Positions 24,344-38,099 of a DNA stretch of 64,000 nt are shown one piece after another. The notes under the pieces were generated by a model. The model was not told the DNA's origin. It saw only the letters and a program-made list of their open reading frames with translations, and made no database searches. The DNA lies in the NCBI GenBank assembly GCA_951812955.1, contig OX638340.1, positions 1,472,001 through 1,536,000 of the forward strand. Reading direction: 5' to 3'. The first letter of the stretch is position 1. Each line of letters opens with the position of its first letter. Source of the DNA: an uncultured Gemmatimonadota bacterium. Its GTDB lineage: Bacteria > JAAXHH01. The translations under genes and the position numbers were made by a program.

Positions 24344-24393
24344 TGTGGTGGAAAAAGCCGCGAGTGCTTACTACACTGACCGTATAGCGGTAC

Positions 24394-24466
24394 GGGGAAT
24401 CGAACCCCGGTTTGATGGCTGAGAACCACCCGTCCTAACCACTAGACGATACCGCCGCGTTGCTCT
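24394..24466 (-). tRNA. tRNA-Glu (anticodon CUC)
   Basis: Manual cloverleaf fold. Acceptor stem GGCGGTA/TACCGCT with a G1-U72 pair, D-stem GTCT/GGAC, anticodon stem GGTGG/CCATC, anticodon loop TTCTCAG, T-arm CGGGG-TTCGATT-CCCCG. CCA is not encoded. Confidence 0.8.
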
Positions 24467-24569
24467 TGACGAAAATACCCCATTTACCGGCCATAGTCAA
24501 GTATCCGGGCCGGCTTTTATATCGCTTCGAAGACGTAAAATCCTCTACGGGCATGGCAAGAATGTGAAC

Positions 24570-24639
24570 TGGGGGGCAGGGATTCGAACCCCGATTCCAT
24601 GGTCCAGAGCCATGTGTCCTACCCTTGAACGACCCCCCA
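24570..24639 (-). tRNA. tRNA-Gln (anticodon CUG)
   Basis: U1-A72 first pair and G73 discriminator, as is typical of bacterial tRNA-Gln. Anticodon stem CATGG/CCATG, loop CTCTGGA, T-loop TTCGAAT. The ends are +/-2 nt. Confidence 0.75.
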
Positions 24640-27439: not shown

Positions 27440-28030
27440 CTATTGGGCGGGCTGCGTGGTGGCTTCCTCTCCGCCCATGGATGCGTCCGAATCGCCGTCT
27501 TCCATTTCCTCTTCGCCCATGTCGCCTTCATCCATGTCGCCTTCGCCCATGTCGCCTTCACCTTCACCCATGTCGCCCTCGCCCATATCCATTTCCGGGG
27601 CGTCGGCGGCCATGACGTGCAACATATCGCCCACCGCGGCGCCGATTTCGGTCGCGGCATTTCCGCCGTTGATGGCGATCTGAAGCGTGCCGGACTCCTC
27701 GTCCATCCGGGCGAGCCAGGCGCCTTCGGCCACGTCGCCATAATCCACGACCATCGGCATGACGAGGGTCTGTTCGTTATGGGTTATCGAAATCCAGCCG
27801 TCCGAGGCGAAACCGGCTTCCGTCAACTGATCGCTCGTGGCGTTCGTATTGATGTTGGCGAATTCCTCGCTAATGCTGGAGACTTCGACGTTGATCATGG
27901 CAACGTCCGCTGCCATCTCCTCGGTTGCCGCCTCTTCCATGGCCGTTTCTTCGGTCTCGGCTCCGCCGCAGCCGTACAGACCGAACGCGCCGACCATACA
28001 GGCCAACAGGTATGATGTAAGTCGTTTCAT
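27440..28030 (-). CDS. lipoprotein with a C-terminal acidic Met/Gly/Glu/Asp repeat tail
   Basis: Lipobox LYGCGG starts at ATG 28030. The C-terminus is MGEGDMGEGEGDMGEGDMDEGDMGEEEMEDGD, encoded by 15-bp tandem DNA repeats at 27480-27600. The track ORF has a spurious 59-aa N-terminal extension. Confidence 0.6.
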   Translation of the reverse strand: MKRLTSYLLACMVGAFGLYGCGGAETEETAMEEAATEEMAADVAMINVEVSSISEEFANINTNATSDQLTEAGFASDGWISITHNEQTLVMPMVVDYGDVAEGAWLARMDEESGTLQIAINGGNAATEIGAAVGDMLHVMAADAPEMDMGEGDMGEGEGDMGEGDMDEGDMGEEEMEDGDSDASMGGEEATTQPAQ

Positions 28031-28213
28031 GATCTTGTTCCTTTCACGTGGAAACCCGCATCGCGGATCAAGTGGTAGAAAAGGCACACAAATTGGTAGA
28101 GGTGGATCGGAATGTTCTGCTTTCCAGGACGTTCGGAATACATCTTTTCTTATGTATATTTCAATTTTAAAGTGTCCGCAACCACAATTCTCAAGAAATT
28201 GCGGCAAAACGCG

Positions 28214-30641: not shown

Positions 30642-30899
30642 ATGGCAGAGGACAGCCGGGTCGTAGCCAGTTTCCAGAAAAACAGCCAGGAAGAGTTCCG
30701 CTTCACGATCACGTCTTTCCGGGGCAAAGAATATGCCGATATCCGGATCTATTACGAGAATGACGGCGATTTCCTGCCCAGCAGGAAGGGCATCACCGTC
30801 TCTCCGGATGCATGGGAGTCGTTCAGGTCCTGCCTCGACGAACTGGAGTCGGAACTCAAGGAGCGCAACCTGCTCAAAGCCGACGAAGGCGAAGGCTGA
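30642..30899 (+). CDS. PC4/Sub1-like (YdbC-type) ssDNA-binding protein
   Basis: VVASFQKNSQEEFRFTITSFRGKEYADIRIYYENDGDFLPSRKGITVSPDAWESF fits the bacterial PC4-like pattern. Confidence 0.55.
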   Translation: MAEDSRVVASFQKNSQEEFRFTITSFRGKEYADIRIYYENDGDFLPSRKGITVSPDAWESFRSCLDELESELKERNLLKADEGEG

Positions 30900-31041: not shown

Positions 31042-32268
31042 CTAGCCCACCCGGTGCCCTTCCCCCGCGAGAAAGCACTCGGGGTCGTGGCGGATGGGAA
31101 GATAACCCGTGCTCATGAGGAATTCGCCGACGATCTCGGGTCCCATGAAACGGAAAGTCTTCCTGAATACAGCAACCCATTCGTCCAGCGAAACGCAGGT
31201 CTGGCCGTTCAGCCAGGCCACGAATGAACCGTGGTCCCGCCTGATCTCCTGGATGACCCGGGCGTTGTGGATGGCCGCGTCGATCTTGAGCCGGTTCCGG
31301 ATGATGCCCGCGTCCCCCAGCAGTCGCGAGCGATCCTCGTCGTCATAGGCCGCCACACGGTCCACGTCGAACCCGTCGAAGGCCTCCCGCAATGCCTTCC
31401 GTTTCTTCAGCACCGTCAACCAGCTCAGCCCCGCCTGGTTTATCTCCAGCACGAGCCGCTCCAAGAGATCCTCGTCCCGGGTCAGGGGGAAACCGTACTC
31501 GTCGTCGTGGTAGGCGGCCAGTACCGGATCCTTCCGCGTCCAGGCGCAACGACGCCGCTCGTCGGCCCCTTCGGTGAACTCGCCTGTCCGATAGGGGTGG
31601 ATGTCCACCCCGGTAATCCATGCCTCGGGCAAGTGGCGCGCGCAGTTCATCAGGGCGAGTTGGGTATAGGTTGGCGTGATGATGAAACGGGTGACGGAGG
31701 TGTTCGCGAACCAGTAGATTCGATCTTGTCCCATACCCGGGGTATCCAGAATCACACCCACAAGGAAGCGCATGAACGCCCCGTGCGTAACCAGGACGAC
31801 ACGTTCCCCGGTAAGGCCGAAATCTTCGTGGATCCTCCGGTTGACCCGCTCCGCACGCGCCTGGGCCGATTCGTAATCCTCCCAGGGCCGGCACTTCCAC
31901 CAACCCTCCTCGTCGAACCCGTCATCGAGGCGGACTCCCGGAAAACCATGCTCGATCTCCGACCGTTTCATGCCGGGTCTACCCTCGTAGTCCGCATTGC
32001 CCGCACCGGCCTGGACCCCGCCCTGTTCGTGGAGGTCGATCCACGCTTCCACGGACTGGCCCGTCTCGCGTATATACGGCGCGATGGTTTCCAGGGTGCG
32101 AAGGAAGGGACTGACGAAGATGCGGGTCGGACGGATGTGGCGGATGCGGTTCACGAGGTATTCCGCCTGACGGTATCCGAGCGCGGACAGGGTGGGATCA
32201 TCGGTGCGTTCTTCCTGCGGCCGGGCGTTGTTCTCGGATTCCGCGTGGCGGATGATGTAAAGTTCCAT
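31042..32268 (-). CDS. tag: fusion protein: histidine phosphatase (PGAM superfamily) N-domain plus DNA-3-methyladenine glycosylase I (Tag) C-domain
   Basis: The N-terminus LYIIRHAESENN is the RHG catalytic motif; start is ATG 32268. The C-terminus is AWTRKDPVLAAYHDDEYGFP ... QAGLSWLTVLKKRKALREAFDGFD ... GIIRNRLKIDAAIHNARV, which is Tag. It is a single continuous ORF. The track ORF carries a 59-aa spurious N-terminal extension. Confidence 0.75.
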   Translation of the reverse strand: MELYIIRHAESENNARPQEERTDDPTLSALGYRQAEYLVNRIRHIRPTRIFVSPFLRTLETIAPYIRETGQSVEAWIDLHEQGGVQAGAGNADYEGRPGMKRSEIEHGFPGVRLDDGFDEEGWWKCRPWEDYESAQARAERVNRRIHEDFGLTGERVVLVTHGAFMRFLVGVILDTPGMGQDRIYWFANTSVTRFIITPTYTQLALMNCARHLPEAWITGVDIHPYRTGEFTEGADERRRCAWTRKDPVLAAYHDDEYGFPLTRDEDLLERLVLEINQAGLSWLTVLKKRKALREAFDGFDVDRVAAYDDEDRSRLLGDAGIIRNRLKIDAAIHNARVIQEIRRDHGSFVAWLNGQTCVSLDEWVAVFRKTFRFMGPEIVGEFLMSTGYLPIRHDPECFLAGEGHRVG

Positions 32269-32567
32269 TGGGTCGGGCAGTCTTTCTCCTGGCCGGTTGC
32301 CGGCTGCGGTTGAAGGGTCGAGGACGGCGCCGCTGCGTGCCCTGAAGCGACGCGTTTCCGGCACGTCGAACTCGCTATCCGCGCATACATCCGCGTGCCG
32401 TCCTCCTGAACCTCCGTAAGGTACATTCCAGGTCCCTGCGTTCAAAGGAAAACGTTTGACAGGCCTGCTGCTGCGGGTTAAGGTTTGCTTTCGCGTCTAA
32501 ACGGTTCGAACGGCCCGAATGGTCGGGCAGATCCGAACAGTTGGCACCTCTACAGGAGCGCGCTCAG

Positions 32568-33677
32568 ATGGACGGGTCCGATCGGCCCTATGTCGAATAC
32601 CGCAAGGTCAGCAAGAGCTACGACGGAAAGTCCACTGTAGTCGACGGCGTGGACCTGGACATCCGCAAGGGAGAGTTCCTGACCCTCCTGGGGCCTTCCG
32701 GTTCGGGCAAGACCACCTGCCTCATGATGCTGGCCGGCTTCGAGTCGCTTACCTCCGGCGAAATCCGCGTGAACGGCCGCTCCATCCAGAATCTGCCGCC
32801 CCGCAAACGCGGTATCGGCATGGTGTTCCAGAACTACGCCCTCTTCCCCCACATGACGGTAGGGGACAATCTCGCCTTCCCACTCGAGGTCCGCGGCGTG
32901 GACCGCAAGGCGTGCCGCGACCGGGTGGAACGCGCCCTGCAACTGGTCCGCCTCGAAGGTTACGAAGACCGGCGCCCCAGTCAGTTGTCCGGGGGGCAGC
33001 AGCAGCGCGTGGCCATTGCCCGCGCCCTGGTATTCGATCCAGAACTGGTGCTCATGGACGAACCCCTCGGCGCTTTGGACCGCCGGCTCCGCGAGGAGAT
33101 GCAGTACGAGATCCGCCGGATCCACAAGACGCTGGGCGTCACGGTCGTTTACGTCACCCACGACCAACAGGAAGCCATGGTCATGTCGGACCGCATCGCC
33201 GTGCTCCGCGACGGCAGAATCGAACAGGTGGCCGATCCCGAGACGCTCTACGAGGAGCCGCAGCGTTCCTTCGTGGCCCGATTCATAGGGGAGAACAACC
33301 GCCTGCACGGCAAGGTACTGAACGTGGACGGCGAGATCTGCGAAGTGGACGTGGACGGCGAGGTCGTCCGGGCGATCCGCATCGCGCCCTGCCAGGCCGG
33401 CGACCCGACTACGCTTTCCATACGCCCGGAGCGTGTGGCGGTCACCCCGGAACCCGGTCTGTACACCAACGAACTGGACGCCCTGATCGAAGACATCACG
33501 TTCCTCGGCGACTACCTGCGAATACACGTTTCGGTGTGCGGCACGTCGGACTTCGTCATCAAGATACCCAATATCGTCGGACACGGCGCCCTGCTGGCAG
33601 GCGATCGGATCCGCATCGGCTGGACGCCGACCGACTGCCGGGTGCTCGACCCGGAAACAGAAGGAGAAGTGGTATGA
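32568..33677 (+). CDS. ABC transporter ATP-binding protein (PotA/FbpC-type, with a C-terminal TOBE domain)
   Basis: Walker A GPSGSGKTT, signature LSGGQQQRVAIARAL, Walker B LVLMDEPLGALD. AGGAG lies 9 nt before ATG 32568. Confidence 0.9.
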   Translation: MDGSDRPYVEYRKVSKSYDGKSTVVDGVDLDIRKGEFLTLLGPSGSGKTTCLMMLAGFESLTSGEIRVNGRSIQNLPPRKRGIGMVFQNYALFPHMTVGDNLAFPLEVRGVDRKACRDRVERALQLVRLEGYEDRRPSQLSGGQQQRVAIARALVFDPELVLMDEPLGALDRRLREEMQYEIRRIHKTLGVTVVYVTHDQQEAMVMSDRIAVLRDGRIEQVADPETLYEEPQRSFVARFIGENNRLHGKVLNVDGEICEVDVDGEVVRAIRIAPCQAGDPTTLSIRPERVAVTPEPGLYTNELDALIEDITFLGDYLRIHVSVCGTSDFVIKIPNIVGHGALLAGDRIRIGWTPTDCRVLDPETEGEVV

Positions 33678-34777
33678 CGAGAAAGACATCCATGCGCCGT
33701 ATCCTGGTACCTGGCCTGGCCGCACTGGTCCTGCTGCTTGGCGGACGCGCCGCCGCGCAGGATCAATCGCTGACGCTGGTCAGCTGGGGTGGCGCATACA
33801 CCCGCGCCTGCGTGAACGGATATATCGAACGTTTCGAACAGGAAACCGGGATTGACGTTAAGATCGAAGATTATAATGGCGGCCTGGCGCAGATACGTGC
33901 CCAGGTCGACGTGGGCAACGTGTACTGGGACGTCGTCGACATGGAACTCCCCGACATGGTTCGAGGCTGCGACGAGGGTCTCCTCGCCCCGATCGACATC
34001 GATGAAATGGCCCCCGGCGCCGACGGAACCCCGGCGGCGGACGATCTGCCCGAAGACGGGATCACGGAATGCGGTCCGACCAACATATACTATTCGACGG
34101 TCGTCGTGTACAACGACGGGCGGATCGGAGCAACGAAACCCACCACCATCGCCGATTTCTTCGACCTGGAGAAGTTTCCGGGCAGGCGGGGCATGCGCCG
34201 CTCCCCGCTGGCCAATCTCGAGTTCGCCCTGATGGCCGACGGCGTGCCGCTGGACCAGGTCTACGCCACGCTGGATACGGAAGCGGGCGTCGGCCGGGCT
34301 TTTCGTAAGCTGGATACCATCAAAGACCAGATCGTCTGGTGGGAAGCGGGAGCGCAGCCGCCCCAGATGCTGGCCGACGGCGAAGTGGTCATGACTACGG
34401 CGTACAACGGACGGATTTTCAACGCCCAGAACCTGGAAGGACAGCCCTTCGTCATTGTATGGGACGGCCAGTTGCTTGATACGGGGGGTGTCGTCATTGT
34501 TGAAGGCACGAGGAACCTGGAGGCCGCGAAGATGTTCGTCCGTTTCGCCAATACCGCGCGGGCCATGGCCGGTGTCGGCCGGTATATCTCCTACAGTCCC
34601 ACGCGCCGTTCCGCCATGCCCTTGATCTCGACACACGCCGAAACCGGCATCGATATGAGTCCCCACATGCCGACCAGCCCCGAAAATGCGGCCCGCGCCC
34701 TGCACAACGACTGGGAATGGTGGAGCGACAACGGCGAAGAAATGAACGAGCGTTTCAGCACGTGGCTGGCACGGTGA
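33674..34777 (+). CDS. ABC transporter periplasmic substrate-binding protein (PotD/PotF-like, SBP family 1)
   Basis: ATGA overlap with the potA stop, an AAGGAG ribosome-binding site, and signal peptide ILVPGLAALVLLLGGRAAAQ. The 752-aa track ORF 32519-34777 is a frame artefact. Confidence 0.85.
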   Translation: MTRKTSMRRILVPGLAALVLLLGGRAAAQDQSLTLVSWGGAYTRACVNGYIERFEQETGIDVKIEDYNGGLAQIRAQVDVGNVYWDVVDMELPDMVRGCDEGLLAPIDIDEMAPGADGTPAADDLPEDGITECGPTNIYYSTVVVYNDGRIGATKPTTIADFFDLEKFPGRRGMRRSPLANLEFALMADGVPLDQVYATLDTEAGVGRAFRKLDTIKDQIVWWEAGAQPPQMLADGEVVMTTAYNGRIFNAQNLEGQPFVIVWDGQLLDTGGVVIVEGTRNLEAAKMFVRFANTARAMAGVGRYISYSPTRRSAMPLISTHAETGIDMSPHMPTSPENAARALHNDWEWWSDNGEEMNERFSTWLAR

Positions 34778-34804
34778 ACGTAACGGATACGGAAACTTCT
34801 CTCG

Positions 34805-36025
34805 ATGAGCGAGAATCCTGAGCAACAGATCGGACGCCTCAAGCCCGGTCCCCGGCTGCGCGCTGCGTTGCTGGTGCTGCCGCTCATGGCCTTCATCGGG
34901 GTGACCTTCCTCGCGCCCCTGGCGAACATGCTCGTCCGCAGCGTCTACGACCCGGTGGTCGCCGACGCGCTCCCGGAGACGCTTGAAAGACTGCGCGCCT
35001 GGGACGGTCAGGGTCTCCCCGGCGAAGCTGCCTATGAAGCACTGGCAGGTGAACTGCTGAAAGCCCGGGAGGACCGCAAACTCGGCCAGGTCGCCACGCG
35101 GCTCAACCGGGTGCAGAGCGGATTGCGCAGCGTGCTCACGCGCAGCGCCCGGAGGCTGAGGAACGTCGACGAAGGTCCGTGGTCCGGTGCCATGATGAAC
35201 ATCCACGCGGCCTGGGGAGAAACCGGGACCTGGCGCGCGTTGCGCGAGGCCGGGGAACGTTACACTTCACGCCACTACCTGAACGCGCTCGATCTGCAGC
35301 GCGATTCCGGCGGGTCCATCGTCCCCCAGCCGGAAGACCGGCGGATCTACCTCACCCTTTTCTGGCGGACCCTGCTCGTGAGCCTGGGGGTGACCGCCCT
35401 CTGCCTTCTCATCGGCTACCCCGTCGCCCGCCTGATCGCCCACGCCCCGCCAAAAAGGGCCTACCTGCTCCTGATCCTCGTCCTCGTGCCCTTCTGGACC
35501 TCCTTGCTCGTGCGCACGACTTCGTGGATCGTGCTCTTGCAGAACCAGGGCGTCCTCAATGACATGCTCGTATTCCTGGGCATCATCGGCGACGACGGCC
35601 GGATCGCCATGATCTACAACATGACCGGTACCTTCGTGGCCATGACCCACGTGCTGCTTCCCTTCATGGTGCTGCCGCTCTACTCGGTCATGAGCGCCAT
35701 TCCACGAGTGCAGACGAGTGCGGCAGAGTCGCTGGGCGCTACCCCGTGGCAGTCGTTCTGGCGCGTGTACTGGCCCCAGACTTTGCCCGGCGTAGGCGCC
35801 GGTTCCCTACTCGTATTCATCCTCGCCATCGGGTATTACATCACGCCGGCCCTGGTGGGCGGCAGCACGGGACAACTTATCTCCAACATGATCGCCTTCC
35901 ACATGCAGTCGTCTCTCAACTGGAGTCTCGCGGCGGCGCTGGGCGGCATCCTGCTGGTGTGCGTGGCGGGGTTGTACGTGCTATACGACCGGCTCGTGGG
36001 CATCGAACGGATGAGGCTGGGCTGA
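34805..36025 (+). CDS. ABC transporter permease (PotB/PotH-like) with an extended N-terminal periplasmic region
   Basis: 406 aa. The permease core with the EAA-like loop is at residues 190-400. Confidence 0.8.
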   Translation: MSENPEQQIGRLKPGPRLRAALLVLPLMAFIGVTFLAPLANMLVRSVYDPVVADALPETLERLRAWDGQGLPGEAAYEALAGELLKAREDRKLGQVATRLNRVQSGLRSVLTRSARRLRNVDEGPWSGAMMNIHAAWGETGTWRALREAGERYTSRHYLNALDLQRDSGGSIVPQPEDRRIYLTLFWRTLLVSLGVTALCLLIGYPVARLIAHAPPKRAYLLLILVLVPFWTSLLVRTTSWIVLLQNQGVLNDMLVFLGIIGDDGRIAMIYNMTGTFVAMTHVLLPFMVLPLYSVMSAIPRVQTSAAESLGATPWQSFWRVYWPQTLPGVGAGSLLVFILAIGYYITPALVGGSTGQLISNMIAFHMQSSLNWSLAAALGGILLVCVAGLYVLYDRLVGIERMRLG

Positions 36026-36840
36026 TGACGACGACCGAACATGGATTCTGGCATATCGCGTACCTCGGATTCTGCGCGCTCGTCTTCGCCTTCCTGATCG
36101 CGCCGATCCTGGTGATCGTGCCGCTGAGTTTCAACGCCGAACCCTATTTCACCTTCACCGACGGCATGCTCCGCTTCGAAGCCGACGCATGGTCTCTTAG
36201 GTGGTACCGGCAGATCGTAGAGGACGAGGAGTGGTCGCGGGCCCTGGTCAACAGCCTGGTCATTGGAATCTCCGCCACGGTCCTCGCCACGGCCCTCGGC
36301 ACGCTCGCCGCGCTGGGCCTATCGAGCCCGGCCATGCCGGGCCGCCGTTTCGCCACGGGGCTGCTGATCTCGCCCATGGTAACGCCCGTGATCATCTCGG
36401 CGGCGGGTATGTTCTTCTTCTACTCGAACCTGGGCCTGGCGCAGACCCACATCGGGTTGATCCTCGCCCACGCCGCCCTGGGCACGCCCTTCGTCGTGAT
36501 CACGGTCACCGCCACGCTCGCCGGTTACGACGCGAACCTTTCGCGGGCGGCCGCCAGCATGGGCGCGGGTCCATTACGGATTTTCCACCGCGTCCAGCTC
36601 CCACTCATCGCACCGGGGGTCGTCTCCGGGGCGATCTTCGCTTTCGCCGCTTCCTTCGACGAGGTCGTCGTGGTGCTCTTCATGGGCGGGATCGAGCAGC
36701 GCACGATACCGCGCCAGATGTGGTCGGGTATCCGCGAGGAGATCAGCCCCGCCATCCTGGCCGTGGCCGTCTTCCTCATCGTCTTCGCCGTGCTTTTCCT
36801 GTTGACCGTGGAGTGGCTGCGCCGGCGAAATGCAAGGTAG
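36025..36840 (+). CDS. ABC transporter permease (PotC/PotI-like)
   Basis: ATGA start/stop overlap with the upstream permease at 36023-36027. 271 aa with six TM helices. The track ORF 35746-36840 has the wrong upstream start. Confidence 0.85.
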   Translation: MTTTEHGFWHIAYLGFCALVFAFLIAPILVIVPLSFNAEPYFTFTDGMLRFEADAWSLRWYRQIVEDEEWSRALVNSLVIGISATVLATALGTLAALGLSSPAMPGRRFATGLLISPMVTPVIISAAGMFFFYSNLGLAQTHIGLILAHAALGTPFVVITVTATLAGYDANLSRAAASMGAGPLRIFHRVQLPLIAPGVVSGAIFAFAASFDEVVVVLFMGGIEQRTIPRQMWSGIREEISPAILAVAVFLIVFAVLFLLTVEWLRRRNAR

Positions 36841-36995
36841 GAACGCAGTTGGCAGGTACGTGGGAAAACCTGGCCGGAGCCGGACGATTGCCGAAAAAAG
36901 GTAGGACCTTCGCGGGCAGATTCGAAGGCCGGTTGACCGGTGTGCTGTGCATACCGGTTGGCCGGCATTCGCGTACCCGCTCCGCGGGAAGGCGC

Positions 36996-38099
36996 TCAGC
37001 CCGCTTCCGTGCCGTTCATATATTCGTTCAGCAGAGAATGGAAGTGGTGCACGCCGTTCTCCCGCTTCACGGAAAACCGGCCCTGGTTGTATGACACGGA
37101 CTGTAATCCGCGCTGGACGTGCTCGCAGATGAAGATGTCCTCTTCCTGGATCTCATCGCCGAAATCCACCAGGTTGTCCACGTCCTGCTCCATATCGGGC
37201 GACAGGTACCATTCGAAAATGGTCAGGCAGCGTTCGTGTCCCAGGGGAACCACCAGGTTGGTCTGCATCTGACCCAGGTAGATGTTGAGCATGAGCGTGG
37301 GGAAAACCCAATAGTACTGCGTGTCGTTCTGGTCCTGTTCCGTCGGCAAGTACCGGCGCGGTCCCTTGTAGCCCTTCTTTTCCCTGGGGAGTATCGGCGC
37401 GTGCTGGATGGAATAGTACCGAAACGGCTCCACCCGGTAGGCGTCGTAGTCGATTTCCCGGTACAGGCCGGGATGCACGACCGGCAGGTGATAGCCTTCC
37501 AGGTAATTGTCCACGTACACCTTCCAATTGCAGTTCATCTCGTAATCCCGGCGCTTGACCCACCGCATCTCGCCGATGCGGTGACCGGCGGCCCGTTTTT
37601 CGATATCGCCCAGAAAAGCCTCCAGAGGCGGCGCAGTCTCGTCCAGGTTGACGAACAGCAGCGGACCCCACTGGCTCACGCGTACCGGTTCGAGCGCCAT
37701 GGCGCAGCGGTCCAGGGCCTGTACCTCTTCGAACTCGGGCGCGTGGCGCAACGAGCCGTCCAGGTTGTAGGTCCAGCCATGATAGTAGCACACGAAGGTC
37801 CGGCGGTTCCCCTGCTCAAGGGCCACGGGACCTGCTCGGTGCTTGCACACGTTGAAGAATCCACGGACCACGTCGTCGGCCCCGCGGGCGATGACTACGG
37901 GTTCACCGGCCACGTCCACCGTGAAGTAATCCCCGATGCGGGCTACCTGGTCGGCCCGTCCCACGAGCTGCCAGGTCTTCCCAAAGACTTCCCTGTACTC
38001 CCGCCGCAGGAAGTCCGGGTCGGTGTACCAGGAAGAGGGAATCGTCCAGGCGGACTCGATGTTCTGGTCGAACGGATGGTCGGTCATTTCGTAGTCCAA
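36996..38099 (-). CDS. Rieske [2Fe-2S] aromatic-ring-hydroxylating oxygenase alpha subunit (GbcA/CntA/stachydrine demethylase-like)
   Basis: Rieske motif CKHRAGPV ... CYYHGWTY. The catalytic domain carries mononuclear-iron ligands (EGYHLPVVHPGL). Length is 367 aa. Confidence 0.85.
   Translation of the reverse strand: MDYEMTDHPFDQNIESAWTIPSSWYTDPDFLRREYREVFGKTWQLVGRADQVARIGDYFTVDVAGEPVVIARGADDVVRGFFNVCKHRAGPVALEQGNRRTFVCYYHGWTYNLDGSLRHAPEFEEVQALDRCAMALEPVRVSQWGPLLFVNLDETAPPLEAFLGDIEKRAAGHRIGEMRWVKRRDYEMNCNWKVYVDNYLEGYHLPVVHPGLYREIDYDAYRVEPFRYYSIQHAPILPREKKGYKGPRRYLPTEQDQNDTQYYWVFPTLMLNIYLGQMQTNLVVPLGHERCLTIFEWYLSPDMEQDVDNLVDFGDEIQEEDIFICEHVQRGLQSVSYNQGRFSVKRENGVHHFHSLLNEYMNGTEAG

What the first reader, a model, noticed from the sequence alone, without database searches (positions are those of the whole stretch)
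31042..32268. Single-ORF fusion of a histidine phosphatase (PGAM-like) with 3-methyladenine DNA glycosylase I (Tag)
- The N-terminal 215 aa carry the RHG catalytic histidine motif (LYIIRHAESENN) of the phosphoglycerate-mutase/histidine-phosphatase superfamily.
- The C-terminal 190 aa are a complete Tag domain (AYHDDEYGFP ... QAGLSW ... GIIRNRLKI).
- Both lie in one uninterrupted reading frame.
- Tag normally stands alone. Coupling a base-excision glycosylase to a phosphatase would be an unusual repair enzyme architecture. One guess is phosphatase processing of nucleotide or 3'-phosphate lesions alongside alkylated-base removal.
Basis: partly seen in the sequence, partly recalled or inferred. 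Interest (0 to 1): 0.55.

Follow-up and report, generated by a model that had tools for sequence, protein, structure and literature searches.

The report
Histidine phosphatase fused to Tag glycosylase
This is a real, evolutionarily maintained gene in which a one-base loss merged two neighbouring, overlapping genes (a histidine phosphatase and the DNA repair enzyme Tag) into one protein in a small group of uncultured marine bacteria. Nothing found here shows that the two halves work together.

Summary
A 408-aa ORF on the minus strand (32268..31042) carries a complete His_Phos_1 domain (aa 3-209) and a Tag/Adenine_glyco domain (aa ~239-400).

It is not a sequencing artefact.
- The same 408-410-aa ORF is intact in 20 other species-level genomes (75-97% aa identity), seven of them records titled as chromosomes.
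- There are only two single-codon indels.
- Both halves are under purifying selection (dN/dS 0.10 and 0.12).
- All catalytic and zinc residues are kept.

The origin can be read directly. More distant relatives (53-70% identity) carry two separate genes in the same order, with an 8-nt start/stop overlap (ATGACTGA) or a 9-17-nt spacer. Removing the T of the TGA stop reproduces the fused frame.

The fusion is confined to this clade: one 50%-identity cluster among 1.84 billion representative proteins.

Support for mechanistic coupling is weak.
- Phosphatase relatives at or below 43% identity never have Tag next door, and some at 57% do not either.
- In 58 other genomes no phosphatase family is among the commonest Tag neighbours.
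- AlphaFold gives two independent domains joined by a low-confidence linker.
- The phosphatase resembles metabolite phosphatases.

Verdict: a lineage-specific fusion of a translationally coupled gene pair. It is a new variant of known kinds and of modest interest.

The parts
31042..32268 (-). Whole coding sequence of the fused protein (408 codons plus TAG stop at 31042-31044)
   Evidence: ORF list and translation. The orthologous intact ORF is present in 20 other species genomes.
31642..32262 (-). Histidine phosphatase domain (His_Phos_1, aa 3-209). Catalytic core: R7, H8, R57, E81 (inferred general acid), H162.
   Evidence: Pfam PF00300 at 95.4 bits against a cut-off of 21.7. Core residues are invariant in fused and split relatives. 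Foldseek TM about 0.7 to phosphoserine phosphatase, GpgP and PhoE structures. dN/dS 0.10.
32227..32250 (-). Active-site motif RHAESENN (aa 7-14), with the nucleophilic His8
   Evidence: Read directly from the sequence. Invariant in the alignment of 15 family members.
31555..31641 (-). Family-specific C-terminal tail of the phosphatase (conserved NCxRHLPxxWITGxD, aa 208-222), followed by a variable linker (aa ~226-238)
   Evidence: The conserved tail is also present in stand-alone relatives. dN/dS 0.25, higher than in the domains. AlphaFold pLDDT is below 50 for aa 211-234.
31558..31563 (-). Fusion junction: codons D236-E237, at the place where split relatives have the phosphatase stop codon overlapping the Tag start (ATGACTGA)
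   Evidence: Frame-by-frame comparison with L021 and L080. The DNA alignment shows exactly one extra T in the split form.
31069..31554 (-). Tag (3-methyladenine DNA glycosylase I) domain, aa 239-400. Zinc ligands C241, H254, H394, C398. Base-pocket residues W243, Y253, E275, W283. Helix-hairpin-helix segment FRFMGPEIVGEF.
   Evidence: Pfam PF03352 at 136 bits. PDB sequence hits 1lmz and 2ofi at about 1e-28. Alignment to E. coli Tag. Foldseek TM 0.71-0.73 to 2ofk and 2ofi. dN/dS 0.12.

Best explanation
The gene encodes one polypeptide with two independently folding, catalytically intact enzymes joined by a flexible linker of about 25 residues.

The two halves:
- The N-terminal half is a branch-1 histidine phosphatase of an uncharacterised subfamily. 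It should act through a phospho-His8 intermediate, assisted by R7, R57, H162 and E81, most likely on a small phosphorylated metabolite.
- The C-terminal half is a short-type Tag glycosylase. It should flip 3-methyladenine into a pocket formed by W243, Y253, E275 and W283 and cut the glycosidic bond. The resulting abasic site is left for other enzymes.

Origin:
- The ancestor had two genes in this order, translationally coupled by an 8-nt overlap of stop and start codons.
- Loss of one base, the T of the TGA stop, put Tag in frame with the phosphatase.
- This happened in the ancestor of a clade of uncultured marine bacteria. The records label them Gemmatimonadota, Latescibacterota or simply 'bacterium', and many isolate names suggest sponge or coral hosts.
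- The fusion has been kept since, because both activities are needed and co-production was already the rule.

Shown: the ORF, the domains, conserved catalytic residues, purifying selection, the split ancestors and the one-base difference.
Inferred: the enzymatic activities, the phosphatase's substrate class, and that the two domains work independently.
For: ORF and domains:
- ORF and domain assignments.
- Twenty further species-level genomes carry an intact 408-410-aa ORF. Seven are records titled 'chromosome: 1' of 3.7-3.97 Mb (L001, L003, L006, L015, L018-L020). Contig names indicate several different assemblers.
- Pairwise aa identity goes down to 75%, median dS is about 0.55, and dN/dS is 0.10, 0.25 and 0.12 for phosphatase, linker and Tag.
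- Catalytic and zinc residues are invariant.

Split relatives and origin:
- Split relatives keep the same gene order. L021/P0012 (70% identity) has an 8-nt overlap ATGACTGA. L080/L100/P0014 (57%) has an 8-nt overlap. L099 and L101 (58%) have a 17-nt spacer. L105 (53%) has a 9-nt spacer.
- The DNA alignment shows a single extra T in L021 exactly at the stop codon.
- The split outgroup L021/L087 shares part of the gene order: Rieske oxygenase before the pair, aminotransferase and PhyH after it. Peptidase M16 and SAM_HAT_C also flank the locus in both.
- Only one 50%-identity cluster among 1.84 billion representatives has both domains.

Structure:
- The AlphaFold model has two confident domains, a linker with pLDDT below 50, and pTM 0.55.
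- Nearest folds are Tag for the C-terminal half and metabolite phosphatases (phosphoserine phosphatases, GpgP, PhoE, riboflavin-pathway HFP, RosC) for the N-terminal half.
Against: - No activity has been measured for either domain.
- The Tag domain scores below NCBIfam's Tag cut-offs (131.7 against 232.5 for the subfamily model; 108.5 against 349 for the equivalog model). Its specificity could therefore differ from E. coli Tag.
- The gene pair persists, with varied junctions, across 53-97% identity of the phosphatase: 9 of the 11 relatives in the metagenome scan that had room downstream. Another lineage has an independent fusion of the same Tag subfamily to an unrelated DSP-PTP phosphatase. 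Both facts leave room for a real functional link that 'independent domains' would miss.
- One contig nested inside the fused clade (L096) is split again. The fused state may therefore not be under selection in its own right.
Confidence: 0.75

Rival explanations
1. A mechanistically coupled repair enzyme. The phosphatase acts in the same pathway as Tag, for example by cleaning phosphorylated DNA ends, dephosphorylating alkylated nucleotides, or regulating the glycosylase. The fusion would then exist to channel or co-localise the two steps.
For: - Fusion plus conserved tight adjacency is a classical hint of functional linkage. The order His_Phos then Tag is kept with overlap, short spacer or fusion across relatives of 53-97% identity.
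- Both halves are under equally strong purifying selection.
- The same short Tag subfamily is independently fused to an unrelated DSP-PTP phosphatase in another lineage (P0053, P0067, P0068).
- There are precedents for branch-1 histidine phosphatase domains joined to genome-integrity or nucleic-acid enzymes. Mycobacterial MutT1 combines a Nudix domain with an RHG phosphatase domain (PMC11784022). An RNase H/acid phosphatase family gives a weak hit here (NF005567).
Against: - Tag is monofunctional and produces no 3'-phosphate (established knowledge).
- Phosphatase relatives at 57% (P0020, L102, L103), 51% (P0024) and 43% or below (all such loci with room downstream) have no Tag neighbour.
- None of 58 Tag-only loci has this phosphatase within 8 kb.
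- No phosphatase family is among the 25 commonest families next to Tag there.
- AlphaFold gives no confident interface.
- The phosphatase is acidic and resembles metabolite phosphatases.
- Neighbouring genes are metabolic, not repair genes.
- Tag fuses with many unrelated partners.
Confidence: 0.15
2. One reading frame but two proteins. Tag is still made separately from an internal start, as in NCBI records that annotate only a 202-aa Tag beginning at M207. The fused polypeptide would then be minor or irrelevant.
For: - PGAP-style records in the same 90% clusters-aa 'DNA-3-methyladenine glycosylase I' (MXY97489.1 and others).
- M207 is conserved.
Against: - M207 lies in the conserved LMNCxRH tail of the phosphatase and is equally conserved in relatives where the genes are separate. 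Its conservation therefore says nothing about initiation.
- There is no conserved in-frame start codon between aa 208 and 241. V220 (GTG) in the window is Thr or Ala in other species.
- The ancestral ATG is now out of frame (L017).
- Most gene callers aa.
Confidence: 0.07
3. A sequencing or assembly frameshift, or a decaying pseudogene, that only looks like a fusion.
For: - Two-domain chimeras in metagenome assemblies are often indel artefacts.
- One related contig (L096) does differ by a 1-nt shift.
Against: - Twenty-one independent sequences, including seven records titled as chromosomes, have the same frame with only two single-codon indels.
- dN/dS of 0.10-0.12 at dS of about 0.55 is incompatible with a pseudogene.
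- Catalytic residues are invariant.
Confidence: 0.01

Closest known systems
Tag, 3-methyladenine DNA glycosylase I (E. coli / Salmonella Typhi / S. aureus; PDB 1lmz, 2ofi, 2ofk, 4aia)
   Same: - Pfam PF03352.
- 38% identity and TM 0.71-0.73 to 2ofk and 2ofi.
- Cys/His/His/Cys zinc ligands, the W-Y-E-W base pocket and the helix-hairpin-helix segment are conserved.
   Different: - Carries a 236-aa N-terminal phosphatase.
- Has an ~18-aa deletion and a divergent second half, so only Pfam positions 1-112 align.
- Scores below the NCBIfam Tag cut-offs.
- E. coli Y13 corresponds to Leu here.
- Belongs to a 'short Tag' subfamily that also has hits in Neisseria, Xanthomonas and Lysobacter records.
Branch-1 histidine phosphatases acting on metabolites (PhoE/YhfR 1h2e, phosphoserine phosphatase PspA 4ij5, GpgP Rv2419c 4qih, riboflavin-pathway HFP 9mmh, RosC)
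   Same: Same fold (TM about 0.7) and the same catalytic R-H...R...E...H core.
   Different: - Only about 20% identity.
- Best PDB sequence E-value is 4e-4.
- Far below every NCBIfam equivalog cut-off.
- RHA instead of RHG.
- Family-specific motifs HEQGG, GWWK and a C-terminal NCxRHLPxxWITGxD tail.
- Substrate unknown.
The unfused His_Phos-Tag gene pair of related marine bacteria (L021/L087 = P0012 + 174-aa Tag; L080-L082/L100 = P0014 + 168-aa Tag)
   Same: - Orthologous genes in the same order.
- L021/L087 also shares the flanking Rieske oxygenase, aminotransferase and PhyH genes. L080-L082 share only the nearby aminotransferase.
- 57-70% identity.
   Different: Two ORFs with an 8-nt stop/start overlap. 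The window differs by loss of one base in the stop codon.
Mycobacterial MutT1 (Nudix + RHG histidine phosphatase domain) and the RNase H/acid phosphatase family (NCBIfam NF005567; Rv2228c-type, named from my own knowledge)
   Same: A genome-integrity or nucleic-acid enzyme joined to a branch-1 histidine phosphatase domain in one polypeptide (PMC11784022; NF005567 weak hit).
   Different: - Different partner enzyme and the opposite domain order.
- No detectable specific relationship of the phosphatase domains beyond the superfamily.
- In MutT1 the two domains cooperate experimentally. Nothing comparable is known here.

Membership tests
Tag / Adenine_glyco (PF03352), DNA-3-methyladenine glycosylase I | Significant match to the family profile | tested here: met
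   PF03352 scores 136.2 bits against a gathering score of 25, but only profile positions 1-112 of 177 align. PDB Tag chains match at 6e-29.
Tag / Adenine_glyco (PF03352), DNA-3-methyladenine glycosylase I | Reaches NCBIfam curated cut-offs for Tag (TIGR00624 subfamily model, NF007678 equivalog model) | tested here: not met
   131.7 bits against 232.5, and 108.5 against 349. It is a divergent short subfamily, so membership is at the Pfam family level only.
Tag / Adenine_glyco (PF03352), DNA-3-methyladenine glycosylase I | Zinc 'snap' ligands Cys4, His17, His175, Cys179 (E. coli numbering, from the literature) | tested here: met
   C241, H254, H394 and C398 align to them and are invariant in 23 fused and split sequences. 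Residues 2-112 and 148-172 are verified.
Tag / Adenine_glyco (PF03352), DNA-3-methyladenine glycosylase I | 3-methyladenine pocket residues W6, Y16, E38, W46 and the QAGLSW wedge segment | tested here: met
   W243, Y253, E275, W283 and an identical QAGLSW. E. coli Y13 is Leu here.
Tag / Adenine_glyco (PF03352), DNA-3-methyladenine glycosylase I | Helix-hairpin-helix glycosylase fold | tested here: met
   AlphaFold model pLDDT is mostly 82-98 across aa 251-390. Foldseek gives TM 0.71-0.73 (normalised to the target) to 2ofk and 2ofi.
Tag / Adenine_glyco (PF03352), DNA-3-methyladenine glycosylase I | Excises 3-methyladenine from DNA | not testable with these tools
   Needs an enzyme assay or complementation of an E. 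coli tag alkA mutant.
Histidine phosphatase superfamily, branch 1 (PF00300) | Full-length match to the family profile | tested here: met
   95.4 bits against 21.7, profile positions 1-193 of 194.
Histidine phosphatase superfamily, branch 1 (PF00300) | Catalytic core: RH(G) nucleophile motif, second Arg, acid Glu, second His | tested here: met
   R7, H8, R57, E81 and H162 are invariant in 15 family members and in all fused proteins. The motif is RHA, not RHG. The role of E81 is inferred.
Histidine phosphatase superfamily, branch 1 (PF00300) | Belongs to a characterised subfamily (PspA, CobC, GpmB, SixA, dPGM) | tested here: not met
   All NCBIfam hits are far below their cut-offs, for example PspA 38 against 350 and CobC 35 against 163. 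The best PDB sequence hit has E 4e-4.
Functionally coupled two-enzyme fusion ('Rosetta stone' pair) | Association of the two families recurs outside the one lineage | tested here: not met
   - Only one 50% cluster among 1.84 billion representatives has both domains.
- No plasmid record covers 80% or more of the fused protein.
- Phosphatase relatives at or below 43% identity lack a Tag neighbour.
- 58 Tag loci lack this phosphatase, and no phosphatase family is among their 25 commonest neighbours.
- Caveat: an analogous Tag-DSP-PTP fusion exists in one other lineage.
Functionally coupled two-enzyme fusion ('Rosetta stone' pair) | Physical or kinetic coupling of the domains | tested here: inconclusive
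   AlphaFold shows no confident interface (linker pLDDT below 50, pTM 0.55). The paired alignment is shallow, and no error map between domains was available.

The most novel reading that the evidence does not exclude
The histidine phosphatase and Tag act in one pathway in this lineage. For example, the phosphatase could trim a phosphorylated intermediate of alkylation-damage processing, or dephosphorylate alkylated nucleotides whose base Tag-like chemistry then handles. That would define a previously unrecognised accessory step of alkylation repair. The independent fusion of the same Tag subfamily to an unrelated DSP-PTP phosphatase elsewhere would then be a second solution to the same need.
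Probability: 0.12. Interest if true: 0.6.

Novelty: new variant of a known kind. Interest (0 to 1): 0.28.

Why it matters
It is a clean, datable example of how bacterial multidomain proteins arise. The ancestral overlapping gene pair, the single lost base and a possible later re-fission are all visible in public sequences.

It also shows an annotation problem. NCBI records of this clade call either a truncated 202-aa Tag or a 408-aa hypothetical protein.

If the two activities turned out to be coupled, it would point to an unknown phosphatase step linked to alkylation repair. The comparative evidence gathered here makes that unlikely. The practical value is mainly correct annotation, plus a candidate for cheap biochemical testing.

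Tried and rejected
- Frameshift artefact: rejected, because the frame is intact in 21 sequences and under purifying selection.
- Longer N-terminus (TTG 32445, or the 437-489-aa gene calls in databases): rejected, because the upstream open stretch is not conserved and every orthologue starts at MELY.
- Independent occurrences of the architecture: one search over 1.84 billion representatives found only this clade. Long Tag-containing hits turned out to be aldo-keto reductase, GNAT, ApbA or unknown N-termini. The N-terminus of P0279 shows no similarity to the phosphatase.
- Plasmid collection: no record covers 80% or more of the fused protein.
- Defence-system membership: no PADLOC hit.
- General Tag-phosphatase neighbourhood link: Pfam scan of 104 ORFs next to Tag in 58 genomes. 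Glyoxalase-family genes were the most frequent, and no phosphatase family was in the top 25.
- Functional hints from the local neighbourhood: only metabolic and transport genes (M16 peptidase, PLP decarboxylase, Rieske oxygenase, ABC importer, aminotransferase, PhyH, SAM_HAT_C) plus a PC4-like gene.
- Promoter and terminator scan: nothing informative.
- Literature: no paper combines Tag with a histidine phosphatase.
- Overall charge as a test of DNA binding: the phosphatase is acidic, but E. coli Tag itself has pI 6.2, so the measure does not decide.
Full report
**1. Observation**

On the minus strand an ORF runs from ATG 32268 to the TAG stop at 31044-31042, 408 codons in all. Pfam places His_Phos_1 (PF00300) at aa 3-209 (E 4.6e-27, nearly the whole profile). 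It places Adenine_glyco (PF03352) at aa 243-354 (E 1.5e-39).

- The nucleophile motif reads RHA, not RHG.
- The Pfam Tag match stops at profile position 112 of 177. The rest of the domain is present but divergent and about 18 residues shorter than E. coli Tag. It still aligns through the helix-hairpin-helix segment (FRFMGPEIVGEF against FKFVGTTICYSF) and the terminal H-x3-C.

The longest ORF would start at TTG 32445, and some database gene calls are 437-489 aa. In 20 orthologues the in-frame open stretch upstream varies from 12 to 92 codons, and every protein begins MELY/MDLY...RHAESE at an ATG. I therefore take 32268 as the start.

**2. Is the fusion real?**

A scan of one genome per species found 20 further genomes with a full-length orthologue of 408-410 aa, 78-97% identical to the window protein.
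- Seven are records titled 'chromosome: 1' of 3.7-3.97 Mb. The others come from different assemblers and projects, judging by contig names.
- All are intact from the same start to the same ...GHRVG end.
- Among the 21 sequences (window included) pairwise identity goes down to 75%. The only length changes are two single-codon indels.
- Nei-Gojobori estimates give a median dS of about 0.55. dN/dS is 0.10 for the phosphatase, 0.25 for the linker and 0.12 for Tag.

A frameshift artefact or a decaying pseudogene is excluded.

**3. Where it came from**

The next relative in the genome scan, L021 (70% identity; the same contig as L088, and P0012), has two ORFs.
- A 236-aa phosphatase ends ...GAA GAT GAC TGA.
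- A 174-aa Tag starts at the ATG inside ...GATGACTGA, giving an 8-nt overlap.

Deleting the T of that TGA gives ...E D D D R I R C, which is the reading seen in fused genes (L017: E N D D R P R C; window: G A D E R R R C). The DNA alignment shows exactly one extra base in L021 at that point.

More distant relatives also keep the pair in this order.
- P0014/L080-82/L100 (57%) has an 8-nt overlap.
- L099 and L101 (58%) have a 17-nt spacer with a GAGGAG ahead of the ATG.
- L105 (53%) has a 9-nt spacer.

Gene order shows the loci are orthologous. L087/L021 have peptidase M16, Rieske oxygenase, His_Phos, Tag, aminotransferase, PhyH, SAM_HAT_C. The window has the same series, with an ABC importer operon and a PC4-like gene inserted on either side of the fused gene. 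Every member of the fused clade shares that arrangement.

In a neighbour-joining tree the fused genes plus one contig, L096, form a clade excluding L021 in 199 of 200 bootstraps. L096, a 1.9-kb Tara contig, sits inside that clade (187 of 200) but is split by a different 1-nt shift. Its Tag ORF starts at a GTG with an 8-nt overlap GTGAGTAA. The simplest history is one fusion event followed by either a re-fission or an assembly error in L096.

**4. How widespread is it?**
- A full HMMER search of 1.84 billion cluster representatives returned a single cluster (P0003) matching over both domains. The next hits are single-domain proteins.
- In the word-indexed search, only the 11 top clusters carry PF00300 plus PF03352.
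- No plasmid record covers 80% or more of the fused protein.
- No paper was found that mentions the combination.
- NCBI records of the clade are inconsistent: a 202-aa 'DNA-3-methyladenine glycosylase I' starting at M207 in some, a 408-aa 'hypothetical protein' in another.

**5. Are both halves functional?**

Phosphatase.
- R7, H8, R57, E81 and H162 are invariant in the fused proteins and in 14 stand-alone relatives. So are the family-specific motifs HEQGG, GWWK and a C-terminal NCxRHLPxxWITGxD tail.
- The AlphaFold model is confident for both domains (mean pLDDT 82.5).
- The N-terminal domain superposes at TM about 0.7 on phosphoserine phosphatases, glucosyl-3-phosphoglycerate phosphatase, PhoE, a riboflavin-pathway phosphatase and RosC. 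All of these are metabolite phosphatases, at about 20% identity.
- No characterised subfamily is matched: every NCBIfam hit is far below its cut-off, and the best PDB sequence hit has E 4e-4.

Tag.
- The zinc ligands (C241, H254, H394, C398), the base-pocket residues (W243, Y253, E275, W283) and QAGLSW are conserved.
- The fold matches 2ofk and 2ofi at TM 0.71-0.73 with 38% identity.
- It falls below NCBIfam's Tag cut-offs. I file it in the Pfam family and in a 'short Tag' subfamily that also has hits in Neisseria, Xanthomonas and Lysobacter records. I do not file it as a strict equivalog of E. coli Tag.

**6. Is there coupling?**

For coupling:
- The pair stays adjacent over a wide identity range with three kinds of junction.
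- Both halves are equally constrained.
- The same Tag subfamily is fused, in the opposite order, to an unrelated DSP-PTP phosphatase in another lineage.
- Histidine phosphatase domains are attached to genome-integrity enzymes elsewhere: mycobacterial MutT1 (PMC11784022) and the RNase H/acid phosphatase family (NF005567).

Against coupling:
- Of the metagenome relatives of the phosphatase at 53% identity or more that have room downstream, 9 of 11 have Tag next door. Two (57%) do not, and neither do P0020 (57%, followed by HicAB) and P0024 (51%).
- No relative at or below 43% identity has Tag within the sequence available. That covers about 50 loci with at least 400 nt downstream, plus P0196.
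- None of 58 Tag-only loci from other genomes has this phosphatase within 8 kb.
- A Pfam scan of 104 ORFs flanking those Tag genes shows glyoxalase-family genes most often (8). No phosphatase family is among the 25 most frequent.
- Tag relatives are fused to many unrelated partners: 16 of 95 listed clusters (further examples).
- AlphaFold gives a linker with pLDDT below 50 (aa 211-234) and pTM 0.55, so there is no confident mutual arrangement.
- The phosphatase is acidic (median pI 5.5), although this is a weak argument.
- Tag is a monofunctional glycosylase, so it creates no 3'-phosphate for a phosphatase to remove (established knowledge).
- The neighbourhood is metabolic, and there is no defence-system signature.

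**7. Conclusion**

The finding is a true, selectively maintained two-enzyme protein. It was created by loss of one base in the overlapping stop/start of a translationally coupled gene pair, and it is restricted to one clade of uncultured marine bacteria. The record titles disagree on the phylum (Gemmatimonadota or Latescibacterota). Many isolate names suggest sponge or coral metagenomes, which I could not verify.

I consider independent action of the two domains most likely, and the overall account carries a confidence of about 0.75. I give a genuine functional partnership about 0.15, separate translation of Tag about 0.07, and an artefact about 0.01.

It is a new domain combination of two well-known families, not a new kind of system. 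Interest is modest.

Noticed in passing
window 30642-30899 (+): An 85-aa PC4/p15-like gene (PF02229, a single-stranded-DNA-binding fold) lies convergent to the fused gene. It is present at this spot in all 20 fused-clade loci and absent from the split outgroup L021.
   Followed up: partly
window 32541-37094 (+): An ABC importer operon (PotA-like ATPase with TOBE domain, SBP_bac_8 binding protein, two permease-sized ORFs) lies divergent from the fused gene. It sits between the Rieske oxygenase gene (36996-38099, -) and the fusion. In L021/L087 the Rieske gene directly precedes the phosphatase, so the operon looks like an insertion shared by the fused clade. The 752-aa ORF 32519-34777 is an overlap artefact. 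The binding-protein gene starts near 33680.
   Followed up: partly
P0053, P0067, P0068 (metagenome proteins, about 329 aa): The same short Tag subfamily (about 60% identical to the window's Tag domain) is fused at its C-terminus to a Cys-based DSP-PTP phosphatase (PF22784/PF22785/PF00782). This is a second, unrelated phosphatase fold attached to Tag in another lineage. Only three closely related clusters on short contigs.
   Followed up: partly
P0052, P0057 (about 600 aa; P0057 is named Gemmatimonadales by NCBI): Tag is fused to the C-terminus of an IMS/DinB-type translesion polymerase (PF00817 + PF11799 + PF03352). This repair-to-repair fusion may be more meaningful functionally than the one studied here.
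   Followed up: no
L022-L079 (Tag loci of 58 other genomes): Glyoxalase/VOC-family genes are the most frequent immediate neighbours of stand-alone short Tag genes (8 of 104 flanking ORFs). RNase J, YdjM and class II tRNA synthetase genes each occur three times.
   Followed up: no
L096 (CEVQ01351087.1) 451-1690: This contig nests inside the fused clade (187 of 200 bootstraps) but has the two genes split again by a different 1-nt shift. Its Tag ORF starts at a GTG with an 8-nt overlap GTGAGTAA. It is either a true re-fission or an indel error in a short-read contig.
   Followed up: partly
NCBI records MXY97489.1, MCY4544677.1, MXZ74900.1, MYK98231.1 versus MYH20127.1: Annotation of this gene is inconsistent: a 202-aa 'DNA-3-methyladenine glycosylase I' starting at internal M207 in several MAGs, and a 408-aa 'hypothetical protein' in another. 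Other gene callers give 437-489 aa from upstream starts.
   Followed up: partly
window 24385-24456 and 24569-24639 (-): tRNA-Glu(CTC) and tRNA-Gln(CTG) genes. They are the only Rfam or ARAGORN hits in the 64-kb window.
   Followed up: no
window 27440-28207 (-): A gene with a SAM_HAT_C domain (S-adenosylmethionine hydroxide adenosyltransferase-like) lies three genes downstream of the fusion and is syntenic in L087. SAM is a natural source of 3-methyladenine damage (from my own knowledge), but no link was tested.
   Followed up: no
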